From NCBI GenBank assembly GCA_035776635.1, contig DASTWI010000020.1, positions 3,483 to 67,482 of the forward strand: a stretch of DNA of 64,000 nt. The letters are read 5' to 3'. The notes below the pieces were generated by a model that did not search any database, was not told where the DNA came from, and saw nothing but the letters and a program-made list of their open reading frames with translations. Numbering within the stretch: position 1 is the first letter of the stretch; the number at the start of each line of letters is the position of its first letter. Source of the DNA: Sphingomonas sp. Lineage in GTDB: Bacteria; Pseudomonadota; Alphaproteobacteria; Sphingomonadales; Sphingomonadaceae. The translations under genes and the position numbers were made by a program. Positions 52,669 to 58,118 of this stretch are shown here, one piece after another.

Positions 52669-52768
52669 GGTCGATCGTCTCGCTTCGTCGATGACGGTTG
52701 GAAAGGTGGCCGCGCTTCCCTTGCAACAGGCGCTTTGTCAACCCGCGCGTCATCGCTAAAGAGCCGCG

Positions 52769-54297: not shown

Positions 54298-54303
54298 AAC
54301 CAG

Positions 54304-54376
54304 TATTCCTGCGAAAGCAGGAATCCAGGATCGCAAGCGCACCGCTCATCATCTGGGCTCCTGCTTTCGCAGGAGC
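54304..54376. repeat. Family A REP doublet between convergent I78 gene and ppx
   Basis: TATTCCTGCGAAAGCAGGAATCCAG...CTGGGCTCCTGCTTTCGCAGGAGC. Confidence 0.82.
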
Positions 54377-54384
54377 CCGGTGGC

Positions 54385-55938
54385 TCACCCCACCACCATC
54401 CGCGCCTCGCCGCCGAGCGCCGCGGCGAGCGCCTTGTGCCGCCGCTCGACCGTCTCGCCGTACAGCGCCGCATCGCTCCCCGCGAGCGTCAGCGTCACCG
54501 CCCCGCCCTCGCGCCCCAGCCGCGCGCGCTCCAGCGGCCCCGCGACCCCGCCGCTCAGCCGCTGCCCCAGCCGGACCGCCAGCCCCCACGCCGCCGCTCG
54601 CCTGAGCTCACGCTCGCCGGCCAGCCTGCCCAGCGGCTCGGGCGACTTCGCGCCACCGCCCAGCCCGGTGAACAGCGCCTGCGCCACCAGGGCCCGCCCG
54701 CGCGCGTCGATCGCCACCCAGTCGCCGTGCAACGCAACATCGAGCCCGCGCTCGGCGCGGAACTCGGGATTGGCATGCCATCCCACGTCGGCGAGCAGGC
54801 ACGCCGCATGTCTCAGCCGCGCCAGCTCCGGCGCATCCTCCCCGAATAGCGGCGCGATCCAGCGATCGAGCAAATCGCCATGCTCGGCGAACCGCCCCAG
54901 CCGCCGCCCCTCGTCGCGCGTCGCGACGATCAGCGGGTCCTCGCCCCGCGTCGCCTCGTCGAGCGCGCCGTAGAGCAGCCCCTCGCGCAAGCCGTAAGCC
55001 GACACCAATGTCGTCGCGCATCCCAGCTGCCGCAGCACCACGCCAAGCAGCGCCGCAGCATCGCCCAGCGTCGGAATCCGCGCGGCCGACAGATCGGGCA
55101 CCTCGCGCAGCCGCGCCTTGTCGAGATGCGCCAGCGCGCGCCCCAGCCGCGTCACCGTCGCCGCCGGCATCGAATAGGCGTGGACGATCGGCAGCGGATA
55201 GCCGGTCAGGTGCATGTCAAGCCGCGCCAGCGAGCGCCACGACCCGCCGACCAGGTAGAAGGGCCGCCCCGCTCCGCTCCCCGCCCAGCCGGTCTTCGCG
55301 AGCACCGTTGCGACATGCCGTTCGAGCGCGCCCTTGCCGCGCGCGCGGATCGCCGCGATCCTCAGCACGCCGAGCGGAAACGACGCCCGCTCGCCGACCG
55401 CACCGCCCGCAACGCGCACCAGCTCCAGGCTGCCGCCGCCGAGGTCGCCGACGATTCCCTCGGCCTCCGGAATCCCCGACAGCACGCCCCGCCCGGCCGC
55501 CAGCGCTTCCTCGTCCCCCGACAGCAGCGCGACGTCGAGCCCAAGGCCGCGCGCATGGTCGATCAGCTCGTGCCCGTTGGCCGCCTCGCGCACCGCGGCG
55601 GTGGCGACGGTGCTGAGCTCGGTGACGTCCATCTCGCGCGCGATCGCCGCGAACCGCGCCAGCGCTCCTTGCGCGCGCGCCATTGCCGCGGCGTCGATCG
55701 CGCCCTTCACCGCCAGCTCGCGGCCGAGCCCGGCCATCACCTTCTCGTTGAACAGGATCGAGGGCAGCCGCTTGGGTCCCTGATAGACGACGAGACGGAT
55801 CGAGTTCGATCCGATGTCGATGATCGCGGTGCGCGGGTGCGCCGCCGCCCGATGCTCCTGCGCAAGCAGGAGCCCGGGACCACCGGCCCGAACCTCGCCT
55901 TGGGCCCCTGCTTGCGCAGGAGCACGCGCCCCCGTCAT
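54385..55938 (-). CDS. ppx: Ppx/GppA exopolyphosphatase with a repeat-derived N-terminal segment
   Basis: IIDIGSNSIRL, ATAAVREA, DLGGGSLE and GLREG motifs; downstream of ppk. Confidence 0.93.
   Translation of the reverse strand: MTGARAPAQAGAQGEVRAGGPGLLLAQEHRAAAHPRTAIIDIGSNSIRLVVYQGPKRLPSILFNEKVMAGLGRELAVKGAIDAAAMARAQGALARFAAIAREMDVTELSTVATAAVREAANGHELIDHARGLGLDVALLSGDEEALAAGRGVLSGIPEAEGIVGDLGGGSLELVRVAGGAVGERASFPLGVLRIAAIRARGKGALERHVATVLAKTGWAGSGAGRPFYLVGGSWRSLARLDMHLTGYPLPIVHAYSMPAATVTRLGRALAHLDKARLREVPDLSAARIPTLGDAAALLGVVLRQLGCATTLVSAYGLREGLLYGALDEATRGEDPLIVATRDEGRRLGRFAEHGDLLDRWIAPLFGEDAPELARLRHAACLLADVGWHANPEFRAERGLDVALHGDWVAIDARGRALVAQALFTGLGGGAKSPEPLGRLAGERELRRAAAWGLAVRLGQRLSGGVAGPLERARLGREGGAVTLTLAGSDAALYGETVERRHKALAAALGGEARMVVG
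55854..55925. repeat. Family A REP doublet inside the ppx 5' coding region
   Basis: GCTCCTGCGCAAGCAGGAGCCC...GGGCCCCTGCTTGCGCAGGAGCAC; 72 bp. Confidence 0.85.
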
Positions 55939-55952
55939 GGCGTTCGTCTCCC

Positions 55953-58118
55953 CTACCCCCGCCGCCTGAGCGACAGTTTCGGCACCGAGTCGCTCGTTCT
56001 CAGCGCCGCGCCCCTGCCCGACAGCGACGGATTGGTCATGAAATAGCGGTGCAGGTTGAACGGCCGCTCGCCCGGATCGTCGCGCACGTAATTGCCGTCG
56101 GGCTGCAATTCCCAGCTCTGTTCGGTGTCGAGCAAATTGGCGACCATCACTTGGTCGAGGATCTGGTCATGCACCGTCGGGTTCTCGATCGGCAGCATAT
56201 ATTCGACGCGCCGGTCGAAATTGCGCGGCATCCAGTCGGCCGAGGAGATGAACAGCTTCGCCCCGTCGTTGGGCAATGCCTTGCCGTTGCCGAACGCGCA
56301 GATGCGGCCGTGCTCCAGAAACCGCCCGATCACCGACTTGACCCGGATCCGCTCCGACATCCCCGGCACCCCGGGCCTCAGGCAGCAAATGCCGCGCACG
56401 ATCAGGTCGATCTCGACCCCCGCGTTCGACGCCTCGTAGAGCTTCTCGATCACCGCGGGATCGACCAGCGAGTTCATCTTCGCCCAGATTGCCGCCGGCT
56501 TGCCCGCCGCGGCATTGGCGATCTCGGCATCGATCAGCGACACCAGCTTCGACCTCAGGTCGCGCGGCGACATGCTGACCAGCTCGAGATGCTCGGGCTC
56601 GACATAGCCGGTGACGTAATTGAACACATGCGCCGCATCGGCCCCGATACGAGGATCGGCGGTGAAGAAGCTCAAATCGGTATAGATTTTTGCCGTGACG
56701 GGATGATAATTCCCCGTCCCGAAATGGCAGTAGGTGCGATAGTCGCTGCCTTCGCGCCGCACCACCATCGAAATCTTGGCGTGGGTCTTCCAGTCGATGA
56801 AGCCGTAGACGACCTGCACCCCCGCCCGCTCCAGCGCGTTGGCCCAGAGCATGTTCTGCTCCTCGTCGAATCGCGCCTTCAGCTCGACCACCGCGGTCAC
56901 CGACTTGCCCGCCTCCGCCGCGGCGATCAGGGCGTTGATCACCGCAGGCTGCTTGCCTGCGCGATACAGCGTCTGCTTGATCGCCACCACGTCGGGATCG
57001 CCCGCCGCTTGCTTCAGGAAGGCGAGCACCACGTCGAACGTCTCGTAGGGGTGATGGACGACGATGTCCTTGGCCTTGATCGCGGCGAAGCAATCGCCGC
57101 CGAACTCGCGGATTCGTTCAGGAAATCGAGGGGAATAGGGCGGAAACTTCAAGTCCGGCCGATCCTCCTCGACCAGCCGCTCGAGGTCGCTGATCCCAAG
57201 GAACGCCGCGCTCTCGGTGATGATCGCATCGCCGCCGCCGAGCTCCTCGCGCAGCAGAACCGCCAGCTCCTCTTCGATTCCCGTCTCCAGGTCGAGCCGG
57301 ATCACGCGCCCCCGCCGCCGCCGCTTGATCGCGTTGGCGAAGTATCGGACCAGGTCCTCGGCCTCCTCCTCGATCTCGATATCGCTGTCGCGCAGCAGCC
57401 GGAACGCGGCGCAGTCCTTCACCCGGTATCCGGGAAAGATCAGCGCCGAGAAATGCTTGAGCAGCGTCTCCATCGCCACGTAGCGCGCCGCCTTGCCCGG
57501 CAGCCGCACGAACCGCGGCACCGTCGTCGGCAACAGCACCACCTCGCGGATCGGCTCGCCGTCGGACAGGCGAACGAGGTCGAAGATCAGGCTCGACCCG
57601 CGATTGGGCAGGAACGGGAAGGGATGCGCCGGGTCAAGCGCCTGGGGGGTCAGGATCGGGAAGATCTGGTCGCGGAAATGCGCTTCCAGCCAGCCTTCGT
57701 CCTCGCCCTGGAGATCGCCCGAATCGAGCACCGCGATGCCGTTCTCACCCAGTTCCTCGCACAACGACATCCACACCTGCTGCTGCGCCTGCATCAGCCG
57801 GTCCGCCTCGAGCGCGATCTCGCGAAGCTGCTCGGTCGGGGTGCGCCCGTCGACCGATTTGCGCTCGACGTCCTGAAGCTGCTGGCCCTTCAGCCCCGCG
57901 ACGCGGACCATGAAGAACTCGTCGAGGTTCGACCCCGAAATCGACAGGAATCTGAGCCGCTCGAGCAGCGGATGCGCGGGGTTCAGCGCTTCCTCCAGCA
58001 CGCGCCGGTTGAACGCCAGCCACGACAGCTCGCGATTGAAATAGCGTTCGCCGCCGCTCTCGCCGACGAACGGATCGTCGTCGTCGAAGATCGGGATATG
58101 CGCGGGCCGGGTCGTCAT
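55953..58118 (-). CDS. ppk: Polyphosphate kinase 1
   Basis: YFNRELSWLAFN, NLDEFFMVRVAGL, HHPY, TLYR, VELKARFDE, KTHAK and GRFLEH motifs. Confidence 0.97.
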   Translation of the reverse strand: MTTRPAHIPIFDDDDPFVGESGGERYFNRELSWLAFNRRVLEEALNPAHPLLERLRFLSISGSNLDEFFMVRVAGLKGQQLQDVERKSVDGRTPTEQLREIALEADRLMQAQQQVWMSLCEELGENGIAVLDSGDLQGEDEGWLEAHFRDQIFPILTPQALDPAHPFPFLPNRGSSLIFDLVRLSDGEPIREVVLLPTTVPRFVRLPGKAARYVAMETLLKHFSALIFPGYRVKDCAAFRLLRDSDIEIEEEAEDLVRYFANAIKRRRRGRVIRLDLETGIEEELAVLLREELGGGDAIITESAAFLGISDLERLVEEDRPDLKFPPYSPRFPERIREFGGDCFAAIKAKDIVVHHPYETFDVVLAFLKQAAGDPDVVAIKQTLYRAGKQPAVINALIAAAEAGKSVTAVVELKARFDEEQNMLWANALERAGVQVVYGFIDWKTHAKISMVVRREGSDYRTYCHFGTGNYHPVTAKIYTDLSFFTADPRIGADAAHVFNYVTGYVEPEHLELVSMSPRDLRSKLVSLIDAEIANAAAGKPAAIWAKMNSLVDPAVIEKLYEASNAGVEIDLIVRGICCLRPGVPGMSERIRVKSVIGRFLEHGRICAFGNGKALPNDGAKLFISSADWMPRNFDRRVEYMLPIENPTVHDQILDQVMVANLLDTEQSWELQPDGNYVRDDPGERPFNLHRYFMTNPSLSGRGAALRTSDSVPKLSLRRRG

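What the first reader, a model, noticed from the sequence alone, without database searches (positions are those of the whole stretch)
55854..55938. Ppx N-terminus encoded by a family A REP doublet
Seen: a GGGGAG site, ATG at 55938, then MTGA-RAPAQAGAQGEVRAGGPGLLLAQEH-RAAAHPRTAIIDIGSNS. The 72-bp (24-codon) doublet begins four codons after the start, and no other ATG/GTG precedes the first conserved strand. Inference: a stable hairpin right after the start codon could tune the Ppx:Ppk ratio in the ppk-ppx operon and so polyphosphate levels.
Basis: partly seen in the sequence, partly recalled or inferred. Interest (0 to 1): 0.62.

Follow-up and report, generated by a model that had tools for sequence, protein, structure and literature searches.

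The report
Hairpin repeat translated in Ppx's start
A 74-base copy of a genome-wide hairpin repeat sits in frame just after the start codon of the exopolyphosphatase gene of a Sphingomonas and is read as a floppy N-terminal tail; it is a well-supported new example of a phenomenon published in 2013, and a role in gene regulation is untested.

Summary
That ATG lies 14 nt after the ppk stop and 9 nt after a GGGGAG site. From the fifth codon on, ppx runs through an inverted dimer of a repeat ("family A", cGTG-CTCCTGC-GAAA-GCAGGAG-CCCAGG). The genome holds 198 cores and 63 dimers of this family.

Several results say the dimer is translated:
- No start codon follows it before the invariant residues.
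- The ATGACG start is conserved in the closest relatives, where it often overlaps the ppk stop.
- The frame survives at least four length changes.
- The Ppx core is under purifying selection.

AlphaFold gives residues 1-31 as disordered.

The new point is comparative. In the same register after ATGACG, the nearest relatives carry a different, CGTC-tagged REP dimer, which is intact, decayed or halved depending on the lineage. One relative has a third REP type nearby. So the ppk|ppx junction is a reused REP landing site, and in this lineage family A took the place of the CGTC dimer.

The hairpin is -59 kcal/mol and starts at +14.

Verdict: a new member of a known kind (intragenic REPs, Di Nocera 2013), of moderate interest.

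The parts
55953..58118 (-). ppk (polyphosphate kinase 1), 721 aa; stop TAG at 55953-55955
   Evidence: ORF list. Pfam PP_kinase_N, PP_kinase, PP_kinase_C_1 and PP_kinase_C, E 1e-39 to 3e-70.
55948..55953 (-). GGGGAG Shine-Dalgarno-like site, 9 nt before the ATG. It lies in a 14-nt ppk-ppx spacer that is 11 nt longer than in the sister sequence L031.
   Evidence: Sequence; comparison with L031.
55936..55938 (-). ppx start codon ATG (ATGACG), the only canonical in-frame start before the conserved core
   Evidence: Homologous ATGACG/GTGACG in L031 and L034-L037. The same start is used in the public annotation.
55852..55925 (-). Family-A REP dimer (REPIN-like), 74 nt with its GTG/CAT ends, translated as about residues 5-29 (R)APAQAGAQGEVRAGGPGLLLAQEH
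   Evidence: Inverted repeat; family census; hairpin of -58.9 kcal/mol.
55902..55924 (-). Start-proximal arm of the inverted repeat (core CTCCTGCGCAAGCAGGGG, 55905-55922)
55853..55875 (-). Start-distal arm of the inverted repeat (core 55855-55872, read on the minus strand as CTCCTGCTTGCGCAGGAG)
55852..55858 (-). GGAGCAT: right end of the repeat, also present at the homologous place in sister L031 (EH-x-A-x-AH-PRT). It may be ancestral sequence or a microhomology joint.
   Evidence: Hand comparison of the sequences printed.
55801..55824 (-). Codons 39-46, IIDIGSNS: first beta-strand and phosphate-binding loop of the Ppx/GppA fold, invariant in 38 homologues
   Evidence: Alignment A2; AlphaFold strand 36-42.
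54385..55938 (-). ppx (Ppx/GppA exopolyphosphatase), 517 aa
   Evidence: Pfam PF02541 (residues 51-327) and PF21697 (residues 367-512). dN/dS of 0.20 against L031 over 479 core codons.
54303..54378 (.). Second family-A REP dimer, 6 nt after the ppx stop codon, between the convergent ppx and I78-like genes. It is orthologous to a dimer in relative L036.
   Evidence: L036 has the same derived arm, ctggaTTCCTGCtttcGCAGGAAtactg.

Best explanation
A copy of the genome's commonest palindromic repeat lies inside the first 30 codons of ppx. It is a family-A REP dimer of two inverted 24-nt units with a roughly 26-nt spacer.

**It is translated (shown).** Translation starts at ATG 55938, four codons upstream. 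It reads through the element as an Ala/Gly/Pro/Gln-rich stretch of 22-24 residues and continues in frame into the conserved Ppx/GppA fold at residue 36. The stretch belongs to a disordered N-terminal tail that varies in length and sequence among Sphingomonas, so the insertion is tolerated.

**The site is reused (shown).** The nearest relatives carry a CGTC-tagged REP dimer in the same register, 6 nt after ATGACG.

**How it got there (inferred).** In this lineage the family-A dimer replaced the CGTC dimer. The family then expanded to about 170-200 copies in a genome with no RAYT transposase.

**Consequences (inferred, not shown).** In the mRNA the element folds into a hairpin of -59 kcal/mol starting at +14. 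This should moderately hinder initiation and early elongation of ppx. It could also protect ppk-ending transcripts from 3' exonucleases, lowering Ppx relative to Ppk. I regard this as a by-product of a tolerated selfish insertion rather than a selected regulator.
For: **Repeat identity and family**
- Inverted repeat.
- 9 cores in the window against 0.16 expected.
- 198 cores and 63 dimers in the genome, 62 of 63 convergent; family consensus.
- 171 copies of the 24-mer in this genome against 0-18 in 24 congeners.

**Evidence that it is translated**
- It follows the sole canonical start, and no near-cognate start lies after the element.
- The five other dimers that fall inside called ORFs all have an obvious downstream start, so ppx is the exception.
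- The ATGACG start is conserved. It overlaps the ppk stop (ATGA or GTGA) in L034-L037.
- From that start to the PRT motif the relatives have 40, 36, 34, 33, 33 and 19 codons, always in frame.
- The core has dN/dS of 0.20 against the sister sequence and keeps every invariant residue.
- The identical 517-aa protein is in NCBI nr.

**Evidence that it is tolerated**
- AlphaFold gives pLDDT below 50 for residues 1-31, and the fold begins at residue 36.
- The modal tail length is 20 aa, with a range of 8-44 among 121 homologues.

**Evidence for replacement**
- G000 is sister to P0002 inside a clade with 95/96 support, in which the CGTC REP at this site is widespread.

**Hairpin:**
Against: - There is no direct evidence of translation or of the protein's N-terminus. 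No RNA-seq or ribosome profiling could be reached.
- No empty or filled site is available in a relative closer than 88% protein identity. The insertion boundaries and the replacement scenario are therefore inferred.
- In four relatives (L031, L032, L035, L037) the distal end of the REP supplies an in-frame GTG or ATG. In those, the REP may be untranslated.
- Both arms share the rare loop variant GCAA/TTGC, and this is the only such matched dimer of 63. It preserves the long hairpin and hints at some pressure or repair to keep the structure, which fits a functional hairpin better than pure neutrality.
Confidence: 0.8

Rival explanations
1. Selected regulatory hairpin. The stable stem-loop right after the ppx start codon is maintained because it sets the Ppx:Ppk ratio. 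It would do so by hindering ppx initiation or elongation, or by stabilising the upstream ppk part of the transcript. That would explain why a REP hairpin of one family or another is kept at this junction.
For: - Hairpins from three different REP families occupy the ppk|ppx junction in 8 related sequences.
- The G000 hairpin is the strongest, at -59 kcal/mol over 74 nt, and begins at +14.
- The matched loop variant GCAA/TTGC in both arms keeps full complementarity. It is the only matched GCAA pair among 63 dimers.
- G000 has an 11-nt insertion that creates a GGGGAG site before the ATG, which could be a compensation.
- Precedent: REPs are proposed to tune the expression of flanking genes, and REPs within 15 nt of a stop codon stall ribosomes (PMC3733652; PMC12306157 citing Liang et al. 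2015).
Against: - The equivalent element has decayed in L034 and L037, is reduced to one unit in L036, and lies outside the coding part in L033. The structure is therefore not conserved.
- Different REP subfamilies also alternate at the neighbouring rnd|aspS spacer, so site reuse is general rather than specific to ppk-ppx.
- The computed cost of opening -20..+19 rises by only 4.5 kcal/mol compared with an in-silico deletion.
- No terminator-like or known RNA family signal was found.
Confidence: 0.2
2. The repeat is not translated as annotated. Translation would start at a non-canonical codon inside or after the element (for example CTG at codon 24), so the repeat would be mostly 5' leader, as Di Nocera et al. 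suspected for most REPs at annotated N-termini.
For: - Di Nocera et al. 2013 state that most REPs at the 5' end of ORFs may be extragenic because of misannotated starts (PMC3733652).
- All five other family-A dimers that fall inside called ORFs in this genome are of that kind.
- Four relatives have an in-frame start at the distal end of the REP.
Against: - In G000 there is no ATG, GTG or TTG after the element before codon 67. Codons 30-34 (CGG GCG GCG GCG CAC) are not near-cognate starts. Nearly invariant P35 and invariant R36 must be included.
- Even the CTG lies inside the distal arm, so part of the repeat would still be translated.
- The upstream ATGACG is conserved and coupled to the ppk stop in relatives.
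Confidence: 0.07
3. Independent insertion rather than replacement. The family-A dimer and the CGTC dimer entered the same target site separately, and the G000 lineage never carried the CGTC dimer.
For: - The support for G000+P0002 (89/67) and for the placing of P0003 and P0008, which lack a REP in the tail, is moderate. Several gains are therefore possible.
- Both elements start in the same register after ATGACG+6, as expected for a sequence- or structure-specific target.
Against: - CGTC REPs at the site occur in all four subclades of the 11-member clade. A single ancestral gain is more parsimonious.
- G000 shares with L031 the segment GGAGCAT-N-GC.CA.CC.CGCACC downstream of the element.
Confidence: 0.3

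Closest known systems
Intragenic GTAG/CGTC-tagged REPs (Di Nocera, De Gregorio and Rocco 2013, BMC Genomics 14:522, PMC3733652)
   Same: - Short palindromic repeats, mostly extragenic and mostly in inverted dimers.
- A minority lie in frame inside known genes and encode 20-30 residues.
- Many lie at the N-terminus.
- CGTC-type families are typical of alpha-proteobacteria, including sphingomonads, and have no dedicated transposase.
- The paper also notes different REPs at about the same site of recB in two Xanthomonas species.
   Different: - Family A carries cGTG instead of CGTC, and its stem lacks the A-T first two positions.
- ppx is not mentioned in the main text (0 hits for 'polyphosphat'). 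The supplementary list was not read.
- Here the N-terminal REP can be shown to have no alternative start. The paper suspected most N-terminal cases to be annotation errors.
Rickettsia palindromic elements (RPE; Ogata et al. 2000, from my own knowledge; cited as refs 13, 14 and 49 in PMC3733652)
   Same: Selfish palindromic repeats inserted in frame in protein-coding genes, tolerated on the protein surface or at the termini. N-terminally decorated proteins are expressed in vivo (as quoted).
   Different: RPE-1 is longer (about 100-150 bp) and occurs in an obligate intracellular lineage. There is no sequence relation to family A. RPE-4 and RPE-6 are classed as CGTC REPs, which family A only resembles.
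REPINs, REP doublets forming hairpins (Bertels and Rainey 2011, from my own knowledge; ref 26 in PMC3733652)
   Same: Two inverted REPs with a fixed spacing form one long hairpin and appear to replicate as a unit. A high-copy, lineage-specific burst of near-identical copies is seen here too.
   Different: REPINs are defined together with a RAYT (Y1/HUH) transposase. None is detectable in this genome.
REP-dependent control of operon expression in E. coli (malE-malF mRNA stabilisation, Higgins et al. 1988; ribosome stalling by REPs within 15 nt of a stop codon, Liang, Rudd and Deutscher 2015, both as cited in PMC12306157)
   Same: A stable REP hairpin inside a polycistronic transcript between two genes of opposite function could shift their ratio. 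The second family-A dimer lies 6 nt after the ppx stop, and in relatives the CGTC REP stem starts 12 nt after the ppk stop, within the 15-nt range.
   Different: In G000 the 5' dimer starts 27 nt after the ppk stop, outside that range. It lies inside the downstream coding sequence rather than in a spacer. Nothing was measured here.

Membership tests
REP / REP-dimer (generic) | Short imperfect palindrome present in many copies in one genome | tested here: met
   198 cores at up to 2 mismatches, 114 of them perfect. 9 in the window against 0.16 expected.
REP / REP-dimer (generic) | Predominantly extragenic location | tested here: met
   57 of 63 dimers are intergenic by a crude gene caller. One dimer overlaps an ORF end and four others lie inside called ORFs; all five have an obvious downstream start. 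Only ppx lacks an alternative start.
REP / REP-dimer (generic) | Inverted dimers with regular spacing that can fold into one long hairpin | tested here: met
   62 of 63 dimers are convergent with 50-55 nt between cores. The ppx copy folds at -58.9 kcal/mol.
REPIN sensu Bertels and Rainey | Cognate RAYT (Y1_Tnp/HUH) transposase in the genome | tested here: not met
   PF01797 gave 0 matches in G000, while 6 of 14 control genomes were positive. The assembly has 71 contigs, so a gene lost in a gap cannot be excluded.
CGTC-tagged REP superfamily (Di Nocera 2013) | Terminal CGTC tag (variants TGTC and CCTC) | tested here: not met
   The consensus is c-G-T-G before the stem: position -4 is C in 46%, -3 G in 93%, -2 T in 85%, -1 G in 92%. 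The fourth base is G, not C, and 'CGTG' is not mentioned in the paper.
CGTC-tagged REP superfamily (Di Nocera 2013) | Stem of 8-9 bp starting with complementary A-T in positions 1 and 2 | tested here: not met
   The stem is CTCCTGC/GCAGGAG (7 bp, or 8 bp with the flanking G:C), with no AT start. The criterion is quoted.
CGTC-tagged REP superfamily (Di Nocera 2013) | Loop of 4-5 nt and a short unpaired tail near CCA | tested here: met
   The loop is GAAA in 151 of 198 cores. With the 8-bp stem the next bases are CCA.
CGTC-tagged REP superfamily (Di Nocera 2013) | No dedicated transposase; one inverted dimer arrangement predominates | tested here: met
   Table 1 of the paper is quoted. The dimer has the same architecture, with tags outermost, as the true CGTC dimers at this site in L031 and L032.
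Ppx/GppA exopolyphosphatase | Ppx-GppA domain with the DxGSNS phosphate loop, plus Ppx_C | tested here: met
   PF02541 at E 6e-36 and PF21697 at E 7e-20. IIDIGSNS is invariant. The model is confident, with mean pLDDT 88.9.
Regulatory REP acting on translation (Liang et al. 2015 type) | REP hairpin within 15 nt downstream of a stop codon | tested here: not met
   The 5' dimer starts 27 nt after the ppk stop. The separate 3' dimer, 6 nt after the ppx stop, does meet this feature.

The most novel reading that the evidence does not exclude
The ppk|ppx junction would be a REP docking site at which one repeat family exchanges for another tag-for-tag (CGT|C... for CGT|G..., in the same register after ATGACG). 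That would imply a RAYT-independent machinery that recognises resident REPs and swaps them as cassettes. The hairpin itself would be kept by selection to set the Ppk:Ppx balance. This lineage would then have renewed a decaying CGTC hairpin with a fresh family-A one and adjusted the ribosome-binding site (the 11-nt GGGGAG insertion).
Probability: 0.12. Interest if true: 0.6.

Novelty: new member of a known kind. Interest (0 to 1): 0.36.

Why it matters
This is a clean, checkable case in which a selfish hairpin repeat must be translated at a protein's N-terminus. The 2013 survey suspected most such cases of being annotation errors. It also shows that different repeat families can occupy the same position in an operon in close relatives. 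That makes the junction a natural experiment on how REPs choose sites and on what a -59 kcal/mol hairpin at +14 does to a translationally coupled gene pair. If the hairpin affects the Ppk:Ppx ratio, it would link repeat turnover to polyphosphate metabolism. If not, it documents how freely disordered protein tails absorb mobile DNA.

Tried and rejected
- **The same junction elsewhere.** A pattern of the family-A arm followed within 3-33 nt by the PRTAIIDI codons found nothing in genome contigs or metagenome contigs. No second carrier and no datable empty site were found.
- **RAYT.** The PF01797 search was negative.
- **Known RNA families.** Rfam gave only generic hairpin matches to miRNA precursors, far below the gathering scores.
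- **Promoters and terminators.** The scan found nothing between 54200 and 56200.
- **Hairpin comparison between relatives.** Comparing the best local hairpin energy was not very discriminating, because all of these GC-rich junctions fold strongly.
- **Generic tag-plus-palindrome search.** My regular expression was flawed and undercounted, so its output is not used (second half).
- **Chance similarity considered and rejected.** I considered that the distal arm (LLLAQEH) descends from the genus-wide N-terminal motif MATLLFRKPR, because both share CTGCTT/CTCCTGCT. The sister clade shows the tail was already remodelled (MTxxR...) before family A arrived, so I treat the similarity as chance.
- **Chance core match.** One family-A core match inside a response-regulator gene (C17:146671, EALLLAQE) is native sequence.
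Full report
**1. What is at the coordinates**

On the minus strand the sequence reads ...CTCAGGCGGCGGGGG**TAG**GGGAGACGAACGCC**ATG**ACGGGGGCGC-GTGCTCCTGCGCAAGCAGGGGCCC-AAGGCGAGGTTCGGGCCGGTGGTCCC-GGGCTCCTGCTTGCGCAGGAGCAT-CGGGCGGCGGCGCACCCGCGCACCGCGATCATCGACATCGGATCGAAC.
- TAG (55953-55955) ends a 721-aa ORF with all four polyphosphate kinase domains.
- ATG 55938 opens a 517-aa ORF (54385-55938) with Ppx-GppA and Ppx_C domains.
- GGGGAG lies 9 nt before the ATG.
- The repeat finder reports one inverted repeat in the region. Its arms are 55853-55875 and 55902-55924: 23 nt each, 96% complementary, 26 nt apart.

The only correction is that the repeat begins at the third base of codon 5.

**2. It is a member of a real repeat family**

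- The 18-nt core CTCCTGCG[A/C]AAGCAGGAG occurs 9 times in the window against 0.16 expected.
- It occurs 198 times in the 3.74-Mb, 67% GC genome.
- There are 63 doublets. Of these, 62 are convergent, with 50-55 nt between core starts.
- The family consensus is c-GTG-CTCCTGC-GAAA-GCAGGAG-CCCAGG.
- A second dimer sits just after the ppx stop (54306-54375).
- The 24-mer has 171 copies at up to 2 mismatches here, but only 0-18 in 24 genomes of the same genus and none in 16 other genera of the order. This points to a lineage-specific burst.
- No Y1/RAYT transposase (PF01797) is detectable.

**3. Is the repeat translated?**

With a crude GC3-based gene caller, 57 of 63 dimers are intergenic. Of the six others, five have an obvious true start downstream of the repeat; four of these lie inside a called ORF and one overlaps an ORF end. 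Only the ppx copy has none.
- In ppx there is no ATG, GTG or TTG in frame between codon 1 and codon 67.
- There is none in frame upstream either.
- Codons 30-34, between the repeat and nearly invariant P35 and invariant R36, are CGG GCG GCG GCG CAC. None of these is a near-cognate start.
- Residues R36 and I39-S46 (IIDIGSNS, the phosphate loop) are invariant in 38 homologues, so the protein cannot start later.
- The core is under purifying selection: dN/dS is 0.20 over 479 codons against the sister sequence.
- The identical 517-aa protein is in NCBI nr, so the public annotation chose the same start.

**4. Relatives**

The organism is a Sphingomonas.

One genome per species of the genus gives at most 70% Ppx identity. 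None of these has a REP here. The usual N-terminus is M-A-T-L-L-F-R-K-P-R-x(6-8)-PRTAIIDIGSNS. Among 121 homologues the tail before IIDIGSNS has a mode of 20 aa and a range of 8-44. G000, with 38 aa, is third longest.

The large protein collection holds closer relatives at 81-88% identity, and I fetched their DNA. They share the start ATGACG and the end (A/V/I)H-PRTAIIDIGSNS with G000.
- In L034, L035 and L037 the ATG overlaps the ppk stop (ATGA).
- In L036 the overlap is GTGA.
- In L031 the ATG follows TAG by 3 nt.

Between start and end they do not have family A. They carry a CGTC-tagged REP dimer of the kind described by Di Nocera et al. (PMC3733652): CGTC-ATGCCAGC-GAAA-GCTGGCAT ... ACCCCAGC-CTTC-GCTGGGGT-GACG.

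| Sequence | State of the REP at the junction |
|---|---|
| L032 | CGTC dimer intact |
| L031, L035, L034 | CGTC dimer partly decayed |
| L037 | CGTC dimer unrecognisable |
| L036 | Reduced to one unit |
| L033 | A third type (CGTCATGCCGGGCTTGTTCCGGCAT dimer) lies upstream of a TTGACG start |

Hand-aligned against the sister sequence:
- G000: TAG-gggagacgaacgcc-ATGACG-ggggcg-CGTG[family A dimer]GGAGCAT-cgggcggcggcgcac-CCGCGCACC
- L031: TAG-gcg-ATGACG-acacct-CGTC[CGTC dimer]GACG-gacatcggatc-GGAGCAT-acggcccgagcacat-CCCCGCACC

The two elements begin in the same register, 6 nt after ATGACG. The 31 nt from GGAGCAT to CGCACC are colinear, with 22 of 31 identical. At the protein level this segment reads EH(R/T)A(A/R)AHPRT.

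A maximum-likelihood tree of the Ppx cores gives the following:
- G000 is sister to P0002 (= L031), with support 89/67.
- Both lie inside an 11-member clade with support 95/96.
- All four subclades of that clade contain a CGTC REP at this site.

The most parsimonious history is one old CGTC insertion, later decay or deletion in several lines, and replacement by family A on the G000 branch. Independent insertion into the same target cannot be excluded. An exact-pattern scan for the family-A arm next to the PRTAIID codons found no other carrier in 185,579 species genomes or in the JGI metagenome contigs.

**5. Frame conservation**

From the homologous [A/G]TGACG start to the PRT codons the distances are:

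| Sequence | Codons |
|---|---|
| L034 | 40 |
| L031 | 36 |
| G000 | 34 |
| L035 | 33 |
| L037 | 33 |
| L036 | 19 |

All are multiples of three with no stop. Five length classes imply at least four indels, all in frame. That would happen about 1% of the time if the region were untranslated.

There is a caveat. In L031, L032, L035 and L037 the distal REP end (GGTGACG, GGTGGCG or AATGACT) offers an in-frame start after the repeat, and the gene caller used it for P0004. In those lineages the REP may be leader rather than coding. G000, L034 and L036 have no such alternative.

**6. Protein consequence**

An AlphaFold2 model built on 38 sequences has mean pLDDT 88.9 and pTM 0.86. Residues 1-31 have pLDDT below 50, and the first strand is residues 36-42. 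The repeat-encoded residues 5-29 are thus a disordered appendage ahead of the ASKHA-type fold.

The same reading frame of the repeat (A-P-A-K/Q/E-A-G-A-Q) is used in the other in-frame copies I found:
- a carboxyltransferase (C18:140368);
- a dimer near the N-terminus of gcvPB (C43:5843, ...APAEAGAQ...GSLLSQGH...);
- an uncharacterised ORF (C41:26725).

Another repeat family is read inside dnaE. Only the carboxyltransferase copy and the dnaE copy (a different repeat family) passed the stricter coding-flank test. Family-A copies inside genes are rare, roughly 2% of cores, but ppx is not unique.

**7. RNA consequence (inference)**

- The 74-nt element alone folds at -58.9 kcal/mol, and the stem starts at +14 relative to the A of AUG.
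- A 156-nt window folds with z = -4.2 against shuffles.
- Forcing -20..+19 open costs 27.3 kcal/mol in the native sequence and 22.8 kcal/mol after deleting the 72 nt in silico. The specific penalty on initiation is modest on this measure.
- The element has no U-tract, and no terminator-like or promoter-like site was found. No Rfam family reaches its threshold.
- It starts 27 nt after the ppk stop. That is outside the 15-nt range in which E. coli REPs stall terminating ribosomes (PMC12306157, citing Liang et al. 2015).
- The 3' dimer lies 6 nt after the ppx stop, and in the relatives the CGTC stem starts 12 nt after the ppk stop. Both are inside that range.

A lowering of Ppx relative to Ppk is therefore plausible but not shown.

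Arguments against a selected role:
- The structure decays in L034, L036 and L037.
- REP subfamilies also alternate at the neighbouring rnd|aspS spacer.

Arguments for some constraint:
- Both arms carry the rare loop variant GCAA/TTGC. This is the only matched GCAA pair among 63 dimers, and 7 of 198 cores have GCAA. The variant keeps the long hairpin perfect at that position.
- G000 gained an 11-nt GGGGAG-containing spacer.

**8. Comparison with what is known**

Di Nocera et al. 2013 describe the following:
- GTAG- and CGTC-tagged REPs, mostly in inverted dimers;
- CGTC types mainly in alpha-proteobacteria, without a transposase;
- a minority inside genes, encoding 20-30 residues;
- one case of different REPs at about the same site in recB of two Xanthomonas species.

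The present case fits that framework. Family A itself fails two defining features of the CGTC superfamily: the tag is cGTG, and the stem has no A-T start. It meets the loop, tail, dimer and no-transposase features. I therefore call it CGTC-like, not a member. It is REPIN-like in architecture, but no RAYT was found.

**9. Verdict**

- The coding interpretation is supported.
- The regulatory interpretation is untested and, on comparative grounds, less likely than tolerated selfish DNA.
- This is a new member of a known kind.
- The added value is the demonstrable lack of an alternative start and the family swap in the same register at the ppk|ppx junction.

Noticed in passing
window 54303-54378: A second family-A dimer lies 6 nt after the ppx stop, so ppx is bracketed by two dimers. 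Relative L036 has a dimer at the same place with the identical derived arm ctggaTTCCTGCtttcGCAGGAAtactg. This copy is therefore old and orthologous, while L031, L032, L034, L035 and L037 lack it. It is within the 15-nt distance from a stop codon at which E. coli REPs stall ribosomes.
   Followed up: partly
whole genome G000 (e.g. C4:9549-9625, C9:50284-50359): Family A shows a lineage-specific burst. The 24-mer has 171 copies at up to 2 mismatches, most of them perfect, against 0-18 in 24 congeners. Yet no Y1/RAYT transposase (PF01797) was found in the genome. What mobilises it is unexplained.
   Followed up: partly
G000 C18:140368-140385; C43:5843-5864; C41:26725-26746: Other family-A copies lie in frame inside ORFs: a carboxyltransferase (...CAPAKAGAQS...), a dimer near the N-terminus of gcvPB (...RAPAEAGAQ...GSLLSQGH...), and an uncharacterised ORF. 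All use the same repeat reading frame (APAKAGAQ) as ppx, which suggests that only the benign frame survives. Only the carboxyltransferase copy passed the stricter coding-flank test.
   Followed up: partly
G000 C35:17529-17546: A related but distinct repeat (CTCCCGCGAAAGCGGGAG; peptide ...FSRESGSPESQ...) is read in frame inside dnaE. This matches the published observation that REPs often sit in replication and repair genes.
   Followed up: no
window 55939-55952 versus L031:2490-2500: G000 has 14 nt between the ppk stop and the ppx ATG where its sister has 3 nt. The extra 11 nt create the GGGGAG site. In L034, L035 and L037 the two genes overlap (ATGA), as they do in L036 (GTGA).
   Followed up: no
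L031:2570-2580, L032:2495-2505: The distal end of the CGTC REP dimer (GGGGTGACG) supplies an in-frame GTG start for ppx, and the gene call for P0004 uses it. The clade's own start, ATGACG/GTGACG/TTGACG, looks like such a REP terminus, so the start codon itself may be repeat-derived.
   Followed up: no
L031:5590-5685 and L032:5513-5600 (rnd|aspS spacer): Two different CGTC-tagged dimer subfamilies (stems TCCCCGC and CCCCAGC) occupy the same intergenic spacer in two relatives. G000's spacer (window 52669-52768) had no perfect-stem hairpin in the scan. Reuse of REP sites by different subfamilies seems general in this clade.
   Followed up: no
L033:2095-2230: Relative P0003 has a third REP type (CGTCATGCCGGGCTTGTTCCGGCAT ... 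CCCCCGGAACAAGTCCGGGGTGACG) in a 138-nt ppk-ppx spacer. The GTGACG just after the ppk stop runs into a stop codon, and ppx starts at a TTGACG further on.
   Followed up: no
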